This document shows positions 37,201-43,200 of a DNA stretch of 64,000 nucleotides, one piece after another (positions within the stretch are counted from its first letter, which is position 1; every line of letters starts with the position of its first letter). The position numbers are program-made. The stretch lies in the NCBI RefSeq assembly GCF_003790525.1, contig NZ_CP033635.1; one strand, 5' to 3'. Origin of the DNA: Escherichia coli. GTDB lineage: Bacteria > Pseudomonadota > Gammaproteobacteria > Enterobacterales > Enterobacteriaceae.

Positions 37201-40200
37201 CAGATGGCGAAGAAATTGTGTCCATGGTGGTGATTGACGTTCCCCGCGCCCCTGCTGAACTGGAGCGCATCGAGGAGGCAGGCAACAAGACGGAAAACCA
37301 TACCGCGCTATGGGGGTGCATCCGTTCACGCACACAGAACGGCGACAAGTGCACGATCCCGCTGTTACGTGATGACATGAAACGGCTTGGGTATGACGTG
37401 AAAAATATGCGGCGATGGTTAGCCAAACTGGAAAAAGACGCCGTGATTTACATTGATGGTGATGATGTAGGACCACTGTAAAAAGTGAGTGGCAAAAGTG
37501 AGTAATGGTGAGGTTTTTACAAAATATTAACACAATTACTCACTTTCTCACCTGTATACATGCTCAAAAGTGAGCAGTGAAAAAACACTTATGAAACATG
37601 CACATACAAAACACAAAAATCTCAAGTGAGACGAAGCGAGACGCTTTAAAAAGTGAGTAGTAAAAGTGAGAGATGGTGAGCAATGAATAAAAATCGAACA
37701 GCAGGACAAAATACCGAAGGTAAATTTATGAACACTGAAATTGAAACACTGAGCATATCAACTGCCCTTCCTGGCTGGTGGGCTAAGTTCAAAGACGACG
37801 ACGGCACGGAATGGTATAGCCCAATTGCTGCATGGGCGCTTTGTGAGATCCACCATTTCGGTACCAGGGATACTTACCGCGAAATCTTACCCGTGCTGGC
37901 CAGTGAGCTGGGCATGAGTCCGCATAGTCCTGATGAGGGAATGTGCGAGTGCCTTTATCTGCCGGATAAGAAGTTTGTTCACTGTGGTGAATCGATGGTA
38001 TTTGCCTGGTATCCGGTTAACGACAGCAGCAATAGCGGTACTCTGGAGTAAATCATGAAGGTAAACCACAAAAAGACAGATCACCGCGCCATTGACCTTA
38101 CAGAGCACTGGCTGAGGGTGGCGATAAAAATCATCGACCGCAACACGGGGGAAGGATACGCGAAAGCGCATCCCGAACTGATTAGCGCATTCATGAGCAC
38201 AGCGGCGGCAAACTTTGCCACGCTGACAGAACGGGAGATTGCCGAAGCGGAACAGGTAACAACCATCAACGTTAAAACCGGAGAGCAGACAGCATGACAG
38301 CACAGATAGCAGCTTACGGGCGGCTGGTGGACGACCCGCAGGTAAAACAGACCAGCAAGGGCACACCGATGACGCTGGCACGTATGGCGGTATCGCTGCC
38401 ATGCAGCCAGGCACAGGACGGACAGGCGACGTTATGGCTATCGGTCATCGCATTTGGTAAGCAGGCCGACTTCCTGGCTAAACATCAAAAAGGCGACGTT
38501 GCCAGCGTATCCGGCACGATGCAGGTCAGCCAGTGGACCGGACAGAACGGGGAAACGCGGCAGGGTTATCAGGTCATTGCAGACAGCGTAATCAGTGCCC
38601 GTGCTGCACGTCCTGGCGGGAGCAGACGCACAACCACAGGCACACAGGCTAATCAGCCACCAGCGGGAGGCGATGACCCTTACGGTGATGATATTCCGTT
38701 CTGAGGGGGTGACGATGGTACATGACCGCATAGCGGAAGAACTGGAGGCTAAAGGGCTGTACCGGAGAGCGGCGGCACGTTGGGCTGATGTTATGTGGCT
38801 GGTGAGCACTGACAAGGAACGCGAACAGGTGGCAAAGCGTCGCGCGGAATGTATCCGTAAGGCACAGAGGCCACCGGAGCCGCCGGATGATTTAGGCGCT
38901 CTGAAAAGGTCAGTTAATCGCACTGAAAAACAAATGGGGATAGCTGGTATTGGCAAAGCAATATGGCGCAACTACCCGCAGAAGTGAGCACACAGCCGGA
39001 GCAATCCGGCTTTTTTATGGGTCCTCCCGGTGGAGTGACCTGTCACGGGGCGGGAGCATCGCGGAAAAAGGCTGGTTTTTGCATTTTCATGGCGGCGGCA
39101 GCATGTGTGATAATTCATTGATAATTAAAAATTATTTCCGTTTTCACCTGTACAATTTTTTTTCTTCCCTGTCATTAGACCAGTTTGCAATTAATTGAAA
39201 TATATAAATAAATCAGTTTTTCACCTGCCTGGTGGAGTTGCCTGTGTCAAAACGCGTTCAGATGGCGGGATATTTATGCCGGATTTTTTCCGGCTTTTTT
39301 GTATCTGAATCTAATTAATCTGTTTTTATGATAAAAATATATTTATCTACCACTTTTATCGATCAATAATGTTTGTGGTTTAACCATTCAGGAGATTTTT
39401 AATGAGTAGCATCAATGACCTGAACACAGCTGACACAAACGGCGGATCCGTTCATCTGGACGCTAAAACAGTAATGCGCATCAAGCAGTACAGAATAGAT
39501 CACGCCGTTAATCTACCCGCGCAGCCATTGCCAGGTGTGGCGCAAATTGTCAGACACGCAGTTAACGCGTGGCTTGATAAGAATGGTTTTGCATCTGGGG
39601 GTGAGCAATGAATCGCTGGTACACCATTAAAGCGGCGGATGTTCGCGGAACGGCGGAGATATCCATCTATGAGGAAATTGGTGGCTTTGGTATTACCGCG
39701 AAGCAGTTCACGGAAGACCTGAAAGCCCTTGGCGATGTTTCACATATCAATCTGCGGATCCATTCACCAGGTGGCGACGTGTTTGAAGGTATCGCCATCT
39801 ATAACCTGCTACGGAATCATCCGGCAGACATTACGGTTTATATCGATGGCGTGGCGGCTTCAATGGCTTCGGTCGTCGCAATGGCTGGCGATCGCGTTGT
39901 TATGCCGGAGAACGCCATGATGATGATCCATAAGCCGTGGGGTATCTCTGGCGGAAATGCTGGCGATATGCGTGATTATGCTGATTTGCTGGATAAGGTG
40001 GAAACAGTGTTAATCCCTGCTTATGCCAGAAAAACAGGAAAATCAGCACAGGAAATTGCCGCCATGCTGGAAGATGAAACCTGGATGGACGGGAAAGAAT
40101 GCCTTAAGCACGGTTTTGCTGATGAATTGTTGCCATCTGTCAGAGCAATGGCGCGAATTGAATCGAAACGCACAGGAGATTTTTTACATATGCCGGAAAC

Positions 40201-43200
40201 CATTAAGGGAATGATTACCCCGCCGAAATCACAGGCAAAAAACACCATTACAGGCTACCAGGAGCGCATTAATGGCATTAAAGAAATTTTTAGCATGTTC
40301 GGCAACCAGTACGACGGGATCAAAATGTCGTGCCTTGAAGATGCATCCTGTACGCTGGAAATGGCCCGGGAACGTCTGCTTAACGAAATGGGTAAAAACC
40401 ACACACCAACAAATAAAAATATCCCGTCTCATATTTATGCCGGAAACGGGAACATAACAGGCGATGCGATTCGCCAGGGCCTTTATTCTCGTCTTGGGTA
40501 TGAGCGTTCTGAGCGTGGCAATCCTTACGCGATGATGAGCCTTTTTGAAATGGCCCAGGCGTCACTGGTTGATCGCGGTATCAGTGTTGGCGGTTTTTTA
40601 AATCGCTCGCAGGTCGTTAATGCAGCTTTTACACACAGCAGCAGTGATTTTTCTCATATTCTGGCTGGCGGTGCTGAAAAATCAGTGCTGAAAGGCTGGC
40701 AGGACAGCGGTGAAACGTTCCAGAAGTGGACGCGTAGCGGTTCACTTTCAAACTTTCATGAAGCAAAGCGCGTTGGTCTGAATGGATTTTCAAAGCTGGA
40801 TAAAGTGCCGGAAGGCGCCGAATACAAATACATCACCACCAGCGATAAAGGTGTGCCTATTGCGCTGGCAACATACGGGAATATTTTTTCTGTTACCCGC
40901 CAGGCCATTATTAACGATGACCTGACCCAGTTAACTACAATCCCCATGGCGATGGGGCGTGCAGCCGCCAGAACAGTAGGTAATCTGGTGTATCTCCTGT
41001 TAACCGGCAATGGCAAATTCACGGATGGTAAGGCGCTATTCCATGCCGATCATAAAAATCTTATTGCGAAGGATATGGACATGGAGGGGCTTAACGAAGC
41101 CCGTAAGCTGATGCGCCTCCAGGAGGACGCTAACGGCGATTCGCTGAATATTACCCCTGCATTTGTCCTGGTCCCCGCCGCGCTGGAGTCTGCCGCACAT
41201 CGCGCCATTCTGTCATCGTCATCACTCTTTCCGGTTGATAGTGAGGGCACTATCAATCAGAACCCCGGCATCATTAACGTGGTGAAAGATATGGCTGAGG
41301 TTATTGTTGAGCCACGTCTTGATAAGAACAATAACAAAGAGTGGTATGTAGCCGCAGCGAAGGGGATGGACACGATAGAGGTCGCTTATCTTGATGGTAT
41401 TGATACGCCATATCTTGAGGAACAGGAGGGCTTTACTGTTGATGGTGTCGCCTGGAAGGTGCGCATAGATGCAGGTGTTGCAGCTCTCGATTATCGTGGA
41501 CTACTGAAATCGAGTGGAGCATGACAACAAGGGCGGCGATAGCCGCCTTTTTTTACGGGTCCTCCCGGTGGAGTGACCTGCCACGGGGCGGGAGCGTCGC
41601 GGAAAACGGCTGATTTTTGAATTTTCATGGGACACCACCACATCAATTAACATGCTGAAAAGTAAAATAAAAATTGATTTTCACCTGTCCCATTTTACTT
41701 TTTGTGGGACATCTGACCAGTTTTTAACATTATGTTTTTAAAGAGAAAAATGATATTCGAGCTGGAGAACGATGCTGGTAGATAGTTAGTGATGAACAAA
41801 AAACAAGCAAAATCGACACCATAAAAATAAAACACATTGAATATCAATTTGTTGCAGTAGTGGTGATGACGAATAAAATTTCAAAAACTAGCCGTTTTCC
41901 GCGACGCTCCCGCCCCGTGGCAGGGCACCCCACAAGGAGGACCCGCCATCACTATGGAGGACATGACCATGACCGAGACCGAAGCGCTCGGGATAATCCG
42001 CAGTATTACCGGAATCAGCCAGCAGGCTGGCGAACAGGAGGCCACGCAGCCGGACAGCGTGATCGCCGAAAATTACGTGCGTGTTGTTGCTGATGTAATG
42101 CGCCGTGATGGTATTGAGCTTAACGGCGTGGATATGCGCGACATACGAATCAGAGTACTAGAGTTGCTGGCATACCGTCGACGCGTGGCGATGTATCAGG
42201 AGAGCGCGAAAAACACTTATCAGTGGAAGAAGCCGGAACGGTTGCGTACGTAATACGTACGGACATCGAGACAAAGACGGTTTAACCATCCATTAAAAAT
42301 CGACGTGATTTTGTGCTTTCCGGATGACGTGGCCAACGTCATTTTTTAGCGAAAAATTCTGATTAAGGTCATTGGCTTAATGGTCATAATGACCACTCCT
42401 ACAGAACAGGTAAAGCCCACCAGCCTGATAATTGCGCTGGCTGGCAAAGTGCAAAATTGCACGATGGCCTAACCCATTGATTATTTCGAAAACCTGCAAT
42501 GCAGGAAATCGGGGAAGTAAGCCTAAGCTATTGATTCTTTCGGAAACCTCAATTTGAGGAAGTCGGCGCGGTAACTCGCTGATATTCCCGATAACGCAAA
42601 ATTGCGTTGGCTGGTTGGCGAGTTGCAGATCTGCAACTCGACCATGAAACTACGGAAACTACCCGTAGTTTGGGTAGTAAGAGTAACACCCAGATTTTGG
42701 GGCTTACTCGTGATACCCAAATTTGGAGTATCGGTGGCAACCATAACGACTTTCGTTACGGTTGATGCTTTTACCCCATTGGGGGAAAGGTATTACGATA
42801 ATCATAACACCTACCGAACAGGTAAAGCCCACCAGCCTGATTGACATTTAACCGGAAAAAAAGCCAGGTAGCCCCGTTATGTGGATCCCCATATCGACAG
42901 CAACGCCCCCTTAAAATTACCCGCCTTTATATTTCTTGTGCCTATTTGTTCCACGTTGTTTCATACAGTGCGCCGAACGGTGTAGTTAATGGTGTAGTTA
43001 ATTTGCGATTTTTGGCACTTTTGTTTGTGTATATTTTTAATTAAATCAATACATTAACTAATATCGGTGATAAAAGGACATATTTATTCATCTTTCGGCG
43101 CAGAATGCTGGCGACCAAAAATCACCTCCATCCGCGCACCGCCCAGCATGCTCTCTCCGGCGACGATTTTACCCTCATATTGCTCGGTGATTTCGCGGGC

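What the first reader, a model, noticed from the sequence alone, without database searches (positions are those of the whole stretch)
39019..41947. Three copies of a ~75-bp GC-rich element bracket the capsid operon, two direct and one inverted
R1 (39019-39092) and R2 (41557-41630) are about 93% identical direct repeats, each placed right after a rho-independent terminator and just upstream of AT-rich promoter-like DNA. R3 (41875-41947) is an inverted copy about 90% identical to R2, separated by a ~245-bp AT-rich spacer and overlapping the RBS of the 99-aa gene. Each copy holds a compound palindrome (CCCG..GTGAC-ct-GTCAC..CGGG). Possible roles are helper-activated late-promoter operators, a cos/pac-type packaging signal, or recombination sites for an invertible or cassette-like segment. 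These copies are not part of any CDS.
Basis: seen in the sequence. Interest (0 to 1): 0.6.

Follow-up and report, generated by a model that had tools for sequence, protein, structure and literature searches.

The report
Three phage-type cos packaging sites
The three GC-rich repeats are lambda-type cos sites, the DNA-packaging cut sites of a 10.8-kb phage satellite island next to phoQ; two match the published cos1 and cos2 of the model island EcCICFT073, so the kind is known and only the third copy and the missing packaging gene are unusual.

Summary
In detail: three copies, none expected by chance. Each copy is the conserved core of a lambda-type cos site. It has cosQ GGGTCCT, then 29 bp on a cosN with the 12-base end GGGCGGGAGC(G/A)T, then about 30 bp more. 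The cores align with the joined ends of phage lambda, and the phage cdtI and Tritos records begin exactly at the predicted end.

The host is an EcCICFT073-type phage-inducible chromosomal island (PICI) beside phoQ. R2 and R3 sit where the experimentally validated EcCICFT073 cos1 (direct) and cos2 (inverted) sit (PMC6092414, PMC6739421). R1 is an extra copy that comes with the ClpP-protease/capsid module.

The cores are 81-92% alike, but the AT-rich DNA beside each is a different cosB:
- R1's matches cdtI/Tritos/HannyBb-type phages.
- R3's matches mEp460/phi458-type phages.
- R2's was found in satellites only.

The island has no Rpp or TerS gene. In a survey of 80 related satellites, 39 have the convergent pair and 12 have three or more cores. 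Homology between islands breaks at the cores. This is a known kind in a modestly new arrangement, and function was not tested.

The parts
32113..32187 (+). attL of the island. Pairs with attR at 42929-43003; the island unit is 10,816 bp.
   Evidence: 75-nt direct repeat, 79% identical, ending in an exact ~25-nt stretch GGTGTAGTTAATGGTGTAGTTAATT. The integrase ORF 32188-33438 follows.
38994..39018 (+). Intrinsic terminator of the perC-like gene (38715-38987), directly before R1.
   Evidence: Hairpin plus T-run. The same terminator-then-cosQ layout occurs at CFT073 cos1.
39019..39092 (+). R1 core: cosQ GGGTCCT 39019-39025; predicted 12-nt cohesive end GGGCGGGAGCAT 39048-39059; conserved stretch to about +45.
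   Evidence: The Tritos and cdtI records start at the position equivalent to 39048.
39093..39252 (+). R1 cosB, type A (helper-phage type). IHF consensus at 39111-39123 (on the minus strand); TTTTCACCTG at 39141-39150 and 39218-39227; remnant of a terS start, GTG TCA AAA, at 39244-39252.
   Evidence: 88.8% over 233 bp to the prophage cos-cosB-terS start in L001. 89-91% over 204-233 bp to HannyBb, Tritos and cdtI. Motif counts.
39402..41524 (+). Capsid module bracketed by R1 and R2: a 69-aa gene (39402-39611) and a ClpP-like prohead protease/major capsid fusion (39608-41524).
   Evidence: NF045540, 907 bits; phrog_133. Only 56% aa identity to the prophage homologue in L001.
41532..41556 (+). Intrinsic terminator of the capsid gene, directly before R2.
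   Evidence: GGCGGC-GATA-GCCGCC followed by T7, read from the sequence. The hairpin is listed, on the minus strand only.
41557..41630 (+). R2 core, at the position of EcCICFT073 cos1: cosQ 41557-41563; predicted cohesive end GGGCGGGAGCGT 41586-41597.
   Evidence: The cdtI and Tritos records start at the position equivalent to 41586.
41631..41765 (+). R2 cosB, type B (found in satellites only). CACCAC at +51..+56, as in type C; TTTTCACCTG at 41678-41687 (+93), as in type A.
   Evidence: Phage matches to R2 stop at about 41641. Type B is found only in PICI loci L007, L008 and L014.
41785..41874 (-). R3 cosB, type C (mEp460/phi458 type), read on the minus strand. IHF consensus at 41842-41854.
   Evidence: 90-91.5% over 164 bp (core plus cosB) to phi458 and mEp460. 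In phi458 the match lies between the lysis genes and terS. IHF consensus.
41875..41947 (-). R3 core, inverted, at the position of EcCICFT073 cos2: cosQ 41938-41944; predicted cohesive end 41904-41915 (minus strand GGGCGGGAGCGT).
   Evidence: 39 of 80 related satellites have an inverted core 25-45 nt upstream of this gene.
41969..42253 (+). Conserved 94-aa gene (phrog_1561), listed as a 99-aa ORF from 41954; last gene of the island.
   Evidence: phrog_1561 alignment starts at residue 6. 73-89% aa identity to the last gene of CFT073, L002 and L008. No Pfam match.
42929..43003 (+). attR of the island, just before phoQ (43084-44544, minus strand).
   Evidence: Same chromosomal site as EcCICFT073.

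Best explanation
Each repeat is the conserved core of a lambda-type cos site, made of cosQ, cosN and the first ~30 bp beyond. The island that carries them is a 10.8-kb EcCICFT073-type phage satellite (PICI).

Shown here:
- The cores are homologous to lambda and lambdoid cos.
- Related phage records start at the predicted end.
- R2 and R3 occupy the positions of the tested cos1 and cos2.
- The three sites have unrelated cosB flanks. Two of these are near-copies of the cosB of two different phage lineages.
- The island has no Rpp or TerS gene.

Inferred mechanism, from the lambda model:
1. After helper induction the island excises and replicates into concatemers.
2. The helper's small terminase subunit binds a cosB.
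3. The large subunit makes nicks 12 nt apart in the adjacent cosN.
4. DNA is threaded into a helper prohead, in the cosN-to-cosB direction.
5. Packaging ends at a later cos of the same orientation, which needs cosQ and cosN. Four island units (43.3 kb) would fill a ~45-kb head.

Inferred consequences for this island. Having no Rpp, it most likely depends on mimicry of helper cos sites. R1 would serve cdtI/Tritos-type helpers, packaging rightward. R3 would serve mEp460/phi458-type helpers, packaging leftward. R2 carries a satellite-only cosB whose partner protein is not encoded here, so it may work weakly, serve only as a termination site, or be a relic. The shared cores are also the places where related islands have exchanged modules.
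For: Core anatomy. The cores align with the real lambda ends (NC_001416 right end + left end). cosQ GGGTCCT lies 29 bp from the predicted nick, against 30 bp in lambda. The sequence ACG|GGGCGG...CGCGG is shared, and 8 of 16 cosN positions are symmetric, against 10 of 16 in lambda.

Phage ends. The cdtI record begins GGGCGGGAGCGTCGCGG. The Tritos and cdtI records both start at the base equivalent to 39048/41586.

Synteny. The island shares the phoQ-adjacent site and gene order of EcCICFT073. CFT073 has a direct cos upstream of rppA and an inverted cos upstream of the 93-aa gene. Both were shown to be functional cos sites by deletion and plasmid transfer (PMC6092414, PMC6739421).

Core versus flank. 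Cores are 81-92% alike, but the flanks are 24-34% alike, which is random level.

R1 flank. It is 89-91% identical to phage cos+cosB and runs into the first codons of terS. The adjacent capsid gene is only ~65-70% identical at the nucleotide level to the same prophage.

R3 flank. It is 90-91% identical to phi458/mEp460 cos+cosB, which lies upstream of terS in phi458.

cosB motifs. An IHF consensus lies at +64..+76 (R1) and +62..+74 (R3). TTTTCACCTG occurs only three times in the window, all in cosB types A and B, at +94, +171 and +93.

No packaging gene. tblastn with six Rpp/TerS proteins finds nothing better than E = 0.88.

Survey. 59 of 80 related satellites have such cores, and 39 have the convergent pair.
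Against: - No experiment here shows cutting or packaging at any of the three sites.
- Phage record starts may have been set by analogy with lambda rather than by mapping ends.
- R1's cohesive end differs from R2 and R3 at one base (GGGCGGGAGCAT).
- In EcCICFT073, deleting cos2 increased transfer (PMC6092414), so an extra cos can be neutral or harmful rather than useful.
- R2's cosB has no known binding protein in this island.
- The cosB type labels in the survey come from short BLAST matches and are approximate.
- No helper prophage lies in the 64-kb window.
Confidence: 0.85

Rival explanations
1. One or two of the three copies are non-functional scars. They were brought in when phage or satellite modules were captured (the capsid module with its cos; a terS module later lost) and are not selected for packaging.
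For: R1 comes with a dead terS start and a phage-like cosB, which looks like a captured and trimmed phage late region. The island lacks the terS that follows type C cosB in L001, L008 and L011; that TerS is 67-69% identical to phi458 TerS. Copy number varies from 0 to 4 among relatives. Deleting cos2 in EcCICFT073 did not reduce transfer (PMC6092414).
Against: The R1 cos region is much better conserved relative to phages (89-91%) than the adjacent capsid gene (~65-70% nt, 56% aa). The R2-spacer-R3 unit is 99% identical between two otherwise ~90% identical elements. All three cores keep cosQ, the spacing and cosN intact. The inverted copy is kept at a fixed distance from the 94-aa gene in 39 of 80 satellites.
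Confidence: 0.3
2. The repeats are selected as recombination sites. The direct pair R1/R2 would gain or lose the capsid cassette, and the inverted pair R2/R3 would flip the spacer (or, in relatives, the rpp/terS gene) to switch which cosB faces which core.
For: Homology breakpoints fall at the cores. H8 and H9 end at 41628-41641. TUM1886 starts at 41860. Against L014, identity is 63-86% to the left of +30 of R2 and 99% to the right. The same cosB types occur at different positions and orientations in different islands: B after R2 here, at the R3 position in L007, at the R1 position in L008; C inverted here and direct in L001. L014 has the layout expected without the capsid cassette.
Against: No invertase or extra recombinase is present; the island's only recombinase is its integrase. 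No genome carries the inverted isomer of this spacer, and no place covers 80% or more of it in 5,426 complete genomes. The sequence is explained in full as cos. Exchange at shared 75-bp cores is what ordinary homologous recombination would give without any selection for it.
Confidence: 0.12
3. The repeats are operators or enhancers for helper-activated late transcription of the capsid operon and the 94-aa gene.
For: Each lies after a terminator and before AT-rich DNA that precedes a gene. R3's outer end lies 25 nt from the 94-aa gene's likely start codon, ATG 41969.
Against: Promoter-like sites are not enriched (7 found, 5.3 expected). The AT-rich DNA is homologous to phage cosB, not to promoters. 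In L008, L011 and L013 the 94-aa gene follows terS or rpp directly, with no repeat. R2 is followed by no gene in this island. No TGT-N12-ACA (P2/P4-type) dyad is present in the cores, read from the sequence.
Confidence: 0.03

Closest known systems
cos1 and cos2 of the E. coli PICI EcCICFT073 (Fillol-Salom et al. 2018, PMC6092414; 2019, PMC6739421; reviewed by Murialdo and Feiss 2022, PMC9026076)
   Same: Same chromosomal site next to phoQ and same gene order. There is a direct cos after the capsid genes (R2 = cos1 position) and an inverted cos just upstream of the last, 93/94-aa gene (R3 = cos2 position). cosQ and cosN resemble the helper's, and the cosB flanks differ between the two sites.
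   Different: The core is the GGGCGGGAGCGT type (cdtI/mEp460), not the lambda type GGGCGGCGACCT; it is only 51-57% identical to CFT073 cos1. A third site, R1, lies upstream of a ClpP-protease/capsid fusion module that CFT073 lacks. No rpp lies between the pair. Two of the three cosB flanks are phage-like rather than island-specific.
Phage lambda cos (cosQ-cosN-cosB; R3-I1-R2-R1)
   Same: GGGTCCT lies 29-30 bp upstream of a 12-nt staggered-cut site beginning GGGCGG. cosN is partly symmetric. An AT-rich cosB follows with an IHF consensus about 60-75 bp in.
   Different: The core is 55-57% identical to lambda. cosB is unrelated in sequence (24-32%). No terS gene follows any of the three sites. 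There are three sites in 2.9 kb, one of them inverted.
cos regions of lambdoid phages cdtI, Tritos and HannyBb (type A) and mEp460 and phi458 (type C)
   Same: R1 plus flank is 89-91% identical over 204-233 bp to the first group. R3 plus flank is 90-91.5% identical over 164 bp to the second. All share the identical cohesive-end sequence GGGCGGGAGCGT.
   Different: In the phages the site is single and is followed by terS and terL. The two phage groups have TerS proteins only 42% identical. Here both cos types sit in one 10.8-kb satellite, in opposite orientations.
cos-type SaPIs (SaPIbov5 carries its helper's cos; SaPIbov4 has two putative cos sites), as cited in PMC6092414
   Same: A satellite without its own terminase subunit that is packaged because it carries a copy of the helper's cos.
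   Different: Different phylum, and no sequence relationship was tested here.

Membership tests
lambda-type cos site | cosQ heptamer GGGTCCT about 30 bp upstream of the cosN nick | tested here: met
   Exact GGGTCCT lies 29 bp from the predicted nick in all three copies, against 30 bp in lambda.
lambda-type cos site | cosN homologous to a 12-nt cohesive end, with partial two-fold symmetry | tested here: met
   ACG|GGGCGGGAGC(G/A)T|CGCGG aligns with lambda ACG|GGGCGGCGACCT|CGCGG. 8 of 16 positions are symmetric, against 10 of 16 in lambda (10 of 16 is also stated in PMC9026076).
lambda-type cos site | Virion DNA ends map to the site | tested here: inconclusive
   The cdtI and Tritos genome records start at exactly the equivalent base. 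Record starts may have been set by analogy, and the ends of the island's own packaged DNA cannot be examined here.
lambda-type cos site | Adjacent cosB with TerS-binding elements and an IHF site at fixed spacing | tested here: met
   Met for R1 and R3, whose flanks are 89-91% identical to phage cosB, with an IHF consensus at +64..+76 and +62..+74. For R2 it is inconclusive: no phage match and no exact IHF consensus, but it shares CACCAC at +51 and TTTTCACCTG at +93.
lambda-type cos site | Terminase small-subunit gene immediately downstream | tested here: not met
   No TerS or Rpp homologue anywhere in the window. Only a 3-codon remnant of a terS start follows R1. This is a feature of phage cos, and the published PICI cos2 also lacks it.
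lambda-type cos site | Cut by terminase and sufficient for packaging | not testable with these tools
   Needs cosmid-type transduction assays or sequencing of virion DNA ends.
EcCICFT073-type Gram-negative PICI packaging module (cos1 - rpp - cos2) | Island with integrase, replication gene with adjacent iteron origin, and att repeats, about 10-15 kb | tested here: met
   Integrase 32188-33438; Icd-like region; RepA-type helicase 36075-37481; iterons 37476-37680; SSB; PerC-like gene; attL and attR 10,816 bp apart. Same site as EcCICFT073.
EcCICFT073-type Gram-negative PICI packaging module (cos1 - rpp - cos2) | Direct cos after the capsid genes and inverted cos before the last small gene | tested here: met
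   R2 and R3 are syntenic with CFT073 L003 7529-7600 (+) and 8262-8339 (-). The same convergent pair occurs in 39 of 80 related satellites.
EcCICFT073-type Gram-negative PICI packaging module (cos1 - rpp - cos2) | An rpp (or terS) gene between the two cos sites that redirects helper TerS to the island's cosB | tested here: not met
   The 244 bp between R2 and R3 holds no such ORF, and tblastn with RppA, two PICI TerS types and three phage TerS proteins gives E of 0.88 or worse. The only other element found with this empty 388-nt pair is IMG/VR contig L014/L040.
EcCICFT073-type Gram-negative PICI packaging module (cos1 - rpp - cos2) | cosB different from that of helper phages | tested here: inconclusive
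   True for R2. False for R1 and R3, which match phage cosB at about 90%.
Chromosomal intergenic repeat families (REP/BIME, ERIC and similar) | Dispersed through the chromosome outside mobile elements, usually transcribed palindromes | tested here: not met
   Only three copies in 64 kb, all inside the island. Copies examined in other genomes lie in satellites or at prophage cos positions. No Rfam family matches. Folding is no better than shuffles for the two direct copies and the + strand of R3 (z +0.09 to +0.40); R3's minus strand gives z = -1.49, with 16 of 200 shuffles folding as well.

The most novel reading that the evidence does not exclude
This is a satellite that has dispensed with the Rpp/TerS redirecting protein. 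Instead it carries three cos sites with one shared cutting core and three different cosB recognition flanks. Two of the flanks are near-copies of the cosB of two distinct helper lineages and face opposite ways, so several helper phages could package it, in either direction. [quoted passage not shown]
Probability: 0.3. Interest if true: 0.5.

Novelty: new member of a known kind. Interest (0 to 1): 0.3.

Why it matters
Cos sites decide which DNA a helper phage's terminase packages, and so which helpers can spread a satellite and the virulence regulators it carries (here a PerC-like gene).

The model island EcCICFT073 is understood as 'island-specific cosB plus Rpp'. Its authors left open why a second cos exists. 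This island, together with the survey, suggests a simple and testable answer: extra cos sites carry the cosB of other helper lineages.

It also shows that an Rpp-less version of the architecture exists, and that the shared cores are where modules are exchanged.

None of this changes the known picture of cos packaging. It extends the picture and gives defined constructs to test.

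Tried and rejected
- Rfam scan of the whole window: no family.
- tRNA/tmRNA scan: none.
- RNA folding of the three copies on both relevant strands: z-scores +0.09, +0.39 and +0.40 for R1, R2 and the + strand of R3, and -1.49 for R3's minus strand (16 of 200 shuffles fold as well). No convincing sign of a structured RNA.
- Promoter scan: 7 sites against 5.3 expected, so the promoter or operator idea was dropped.
- Pfam on the 94-aa protein: nothing. NCBIfam: nothing.
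- tblastn for Rpp/TerS in the window: nothing.
- Search for the whole R2-spacer-R3 unit in 5,426 complete E. coli genomes: no place covers 80% or more. Only the two halves occur, separately, so an inversion polymorphism could not be tested.
- The palindrome GTGAC-CT-GTCAC was rejected as a feature of the family, because it is exact only in R1.
- I first thought L014 might be a direct R1xR2 deletion product of a window-type island. Its core is a different subtype (GGGCGGCGGACG), so only the layout supports that idea, not the sequence.
- The 'GACACCACCAC' shared by R2 and CFT073 cos1 lies 6 bp out of register (+46 against +52). I therefore do not claim that R2 carries the proposed Rpp-binding element of PMC9026076.

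Full report
**1. The observation.**
- R1 (39011/39019-39092) and R2 (41549/41557-41630) are direct repeats, 93% identical over 82 nt.
- R3 (41875-41947) is inverted, 90.9% identical to R2 over 66 nt or 86% over 86-nt arms.
- A 45-nt core pattern with up to three mismatches finds only these three sites in 64 kb. None of 100 shuffles gives any.
- R1 follows a hairpin plus T-run. So does R2, read from the sequence.
- The DNA beyond R1, and the 244 bp between R2 and R3, has GC 0.24-0.35.

Two details do not hold. The palindrome GTGAC-CT-GTCAC is exact only in R1. The downstream gene most likely starts at ATG 41969, with its own GGAGG at 41956-41960, rather than at 41954. The reasons are that its phrog_1561 match begins at residue 6 and that homologues are annotated at 93-94 aa.

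**2. What the element is.** Each copy aligns with the joined ends of phage lambda taken from NC_001416.
- Lambda reads ...ACGGGTCCTTTCCGGTGATCCGACAGGTTACG | GGGCGGCGACCT | CGCGGGTTTTCGCT...
- R2 reads ...ACGGGTCCTCCCGGTGGAGTGACCTGCCACG | GGGCGGGAGCGT | CGCGGAAAACGGCT....
- The heptamer GGGTCCT lies 29 bp from the predicted nick, against 30 bp in lambda. I recall this heptamer as lambda cosQ; the papers read here state only that PICI and lambda share cosQ, cosN and their spacing (PMC9026076).
- The 16 bp around the cut are symmetric at 8 positions, against 10 in lambda.
- The phage cdtI record begins GGGCGGGAGCGTCGCGG. The cdtI and Tritos records both begin at the base equivalent to 39048 in R1 and 41586 in R2.

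So the 75-bp 'element' is the cosQ-cosN core of a cos site of the cdtI/mEp460 group of lambdoid phages. The predicted 12-nt cohesive ends are 39048-39059, 41586-41597 and, on the minus strand, 41915-41904.

**3. The host element.** The copies lie in a 10,816-bp island bounded by attL 32113-32187 and attR 42929-43003. In order, it carries:
- an integrase;
- an Icd-like region;
- a RepA-type helicase followed by iterons;
- an SSB;
- a PerC-like gene;
- a 69-aa gene;
- a ClpP-protease/major-capsid fusion;
- a final 94-aa gene.

phoQ, phoP and purB follow, which is exactly the site of the model satellite EcCICFT073 in strain CFT073. CFT073 has a direct lambda-type cos just upstream of rppA (L003 7529-7600). 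It also has an inverted one just upstream of its 93-aa last gene (L003 8262-8339).

The literature calls these cos1 and cos2. Both enable plasmid transfer by lambda and phi80. Deleting cos1 lowers island transfer, deleting cos2 raises it, and deleting both abolishes it. RppA bound to helper TerS recognises the cosB of cos1 (PMC6092414, PMC6739421; reviewed in PMC9026076). R2 and R3 are therefore the positional counterparts of cos1 and cos2.

R1 has no counterpart in CFT073. It is present in every island examined that carries the ClpP/capsid fusion module (L001, L002, L008, L011, L012, L024, L030, L032), apart from L045, where only one atypical core was found.

**4. Same core, three different flanks.** The cores are 81-92% alike, but the 104 bp beyond them are 24-34% alike, which is random level.

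*Type A (R1).* The flank is 88.8% identical over 233 bp to the cos-cosB-terS start of the prophage in L001. It is 89-91% identical over 204-233 bp to HannyBb, Tritos and cdtI. The homology runs into the first three codons of the phage terS, which is dead here. The adjacent capsid gene is far more diverged from the same prophage (56% aa, about 65-70% nt).

*Type C (R3).* With its core, the flank is 90-91.5% identical over 164 bp to phi458 and mEp460. In phi458 the match lies between the lysis genes and terS.

*Type B (R2).* The flank matches no phage record beyond the core. It was found only in satellites: L007, L008 and the IMG/VR contig L014.

*Motifs.* An IHF consensus lies at +64..+76 in A and +62..+74 in C. 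TTTTCACCTG occurs only three times in the window, at +94 and +171 in A and at +93 in B. B shares CACCAC at +51..+56 with C.

*The two phage groups.* They share the cohesive-end sequence, but their TerS proteins are only 42% identical. In L001, L008 and L011 the type C flank is followed by a satellite TerS that is 67-69% identical to phi458 TerS.

**5. What is missing.** Related islands carry rppA, a Nu1-like terS or a DUF1441 terS between the pair. This island has none. The 244-bp spacer is just cosB type B abutting cosB type C, and tblastn with six Rpp/TerS proteins finds nothing in the whole window.

No complete E. coli genome in the collection has this spacer as a unit. One IMG/VR satellite does (L014/L040). 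There it is 99.2% identical from +30 of R2 to the end of the spacer. The terminator, cosQ side and cosN of R2 are only 63-86% identical.

**6. How general is it.** Among 80 IMG/VR satellites that encode the 94-aa protein:
- 59 have at least one recognisable core.
- 39 have an inverted core 25-45 nt upstream of that gene. In all 39 a direct core lies further upstream.
- 12 have three or more cores.
- 21 have none.

In many of them the inverted copy's flank is the one that resembles a phage cosB (labelled 'lambda'). The direct copy precedes the satellite's own terS or rpp. The type labels rest on short BLAST matches and are approximate.

So the convergent pair is the normal layout of this satellite family, and the triple layout is a minority form. 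The layout of type A, then another direct cos, then inverted type C, around the ClpP/capsid module, recurs in L002, L012, L030 and L032.

**7. Mechanism.** Shown: the homology, the synteny, the flank types and the absence of rpp/terS. Inferred from the lambda model (PMC9026076): TerS binds cosB, TerL nicks cosN, DNA enters the prohead in the cosN-to-cosB direction, and packaging ends at a later cos of the same orientation.

- Four island units make 43.3 kb, which fits a ~45-kb head. That agrees with the phage-sized DNA reported for EcCICFT073 (PMC6092414).
- Without Rpp, the most economical reading is helper mimicry. R1 would serve cdtI-type helpers and R3 would serve mEp460-type helpers, in opposite directions.
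- R2 is uncertain. It might be bound weakly by either TerS (it shares one motif with each flank type), act only in termination, or be a relic.
- I put 0.85 on 'these are cos sites and at least one is the island's packaging site'.
- I put about 0.3 on the stronger claim that the multiplicity is an adaptation to several helpers.

**8. Rivals.**
- *Scars of module capture.* This is the serious rival for individual copies, given the dead terS start, the variable copy number and the fact that the cos2 deletion increased transfer. Against it stand the intact anatomy of all three cores, the high conservation of the cos regions relative to neighbouring genes, and the fixed position of the inverted copy in 39 of 80 satellites.
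- *Dedicated recombination sites.* Unlikely. The only recombinase is the integrase, and no inverted isomer was found. Homology between islands does break at the cores, and the same flank types occur at different positions and orientations. Recombination at the cores has therefore clearly shaped these islands.
- *Late-promoter operators, structured RNAs and chromosomal intergenic repeats.* Not supported.

**9. Novelty and verdict.** PICI cos sites, including a second inverted one, are published. The core here is a different sequence type from EcCICFT073 (51-57% identity). A third site and an rpp-less pair were not described in the papers I could search: only the two Penades papers contain cos1, cos2 and PICI together.

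I file this as a new member of a known kind. The arrangement makes the open question 'why two different cos sites?' testable. Interest is 0.3.

Noticed in passing
window 32113-32187 and 42929-43003: attL and attR of the island: a 75-nt direct repeat, 79% identical, ending in an exact ~25-nt stretch GGTGTAGTTAATGGTGTAGTTAATT. The unit length is 10,816 bp, so four units (43.3 kb) would fill a lambdoid head.
   Followed up: partly
window 37476-37512 and 37644-37680: A pair of 37-nt repeats built from AAAAGTGAG iterons, directly after the RepA-type helicase gene (36075-37481). This is probably the island's replication origin, as described for PICIs in PMC6092414.
   Followed up: no
window 38715-38987: A 90-aa PerC-like transcriptional activator gene (phrog_994; 66% identical to the PerC-family protein of EcCICFT073), just upstream of R1. 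It is a possible virulence-regulator cargo.
   Followed up: partly
window 42386-42429 and 42798-42841: A 44-nt direct repeat (89% identical) between the 94-aa gene and attR. IHF-consensus matches lie nearby at 42470, 42524 and 43044. Possibly integrase or IHF arm sites, or a remnant of an older att. Unexplained.
   Followed up: no
L001 (E. coli EC42405, NZ_CP043414.1 2497047-2517706): A near-identical island (capsid fusion 99% aa) is inserted inside the large-terminase gene of a lambdoid prophage whose own cos has the same core. This is a helper-embedded satellite of the kind described in PMC10111431.
   Followed up: partly
L014 (IMGVR_UViG_2778261085_000011), 1660-4852: This contig carries two PerC-like genes and two copies of the 94-aa gene family. 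One copy forms the C-terminal half of a 196-aa ORF. A third cos with a lambda-like flank lies downstream. It looks like the right ends of two satellites joined in tandem.
   Followed up: partly
loci L015-L094 (IMG/VR satellites encoding the 94-aa protein): 21 of 80 have no recognisable lambda-type cosQ-cosN core within the DNA held. They may use a different cos type or a pac mechanism, or the site may lie outside the fetched stretch.
   Followed up: no
window 41969-42253: The conserved last gene of these islands (phrog_1561) has no Pfam or NCBIfam match. PMC6092414 says a regulator called RgdR is encoded by all E. coli PICIs analysed. Whether this gene is rgdR was not checked.
   Followed up: no
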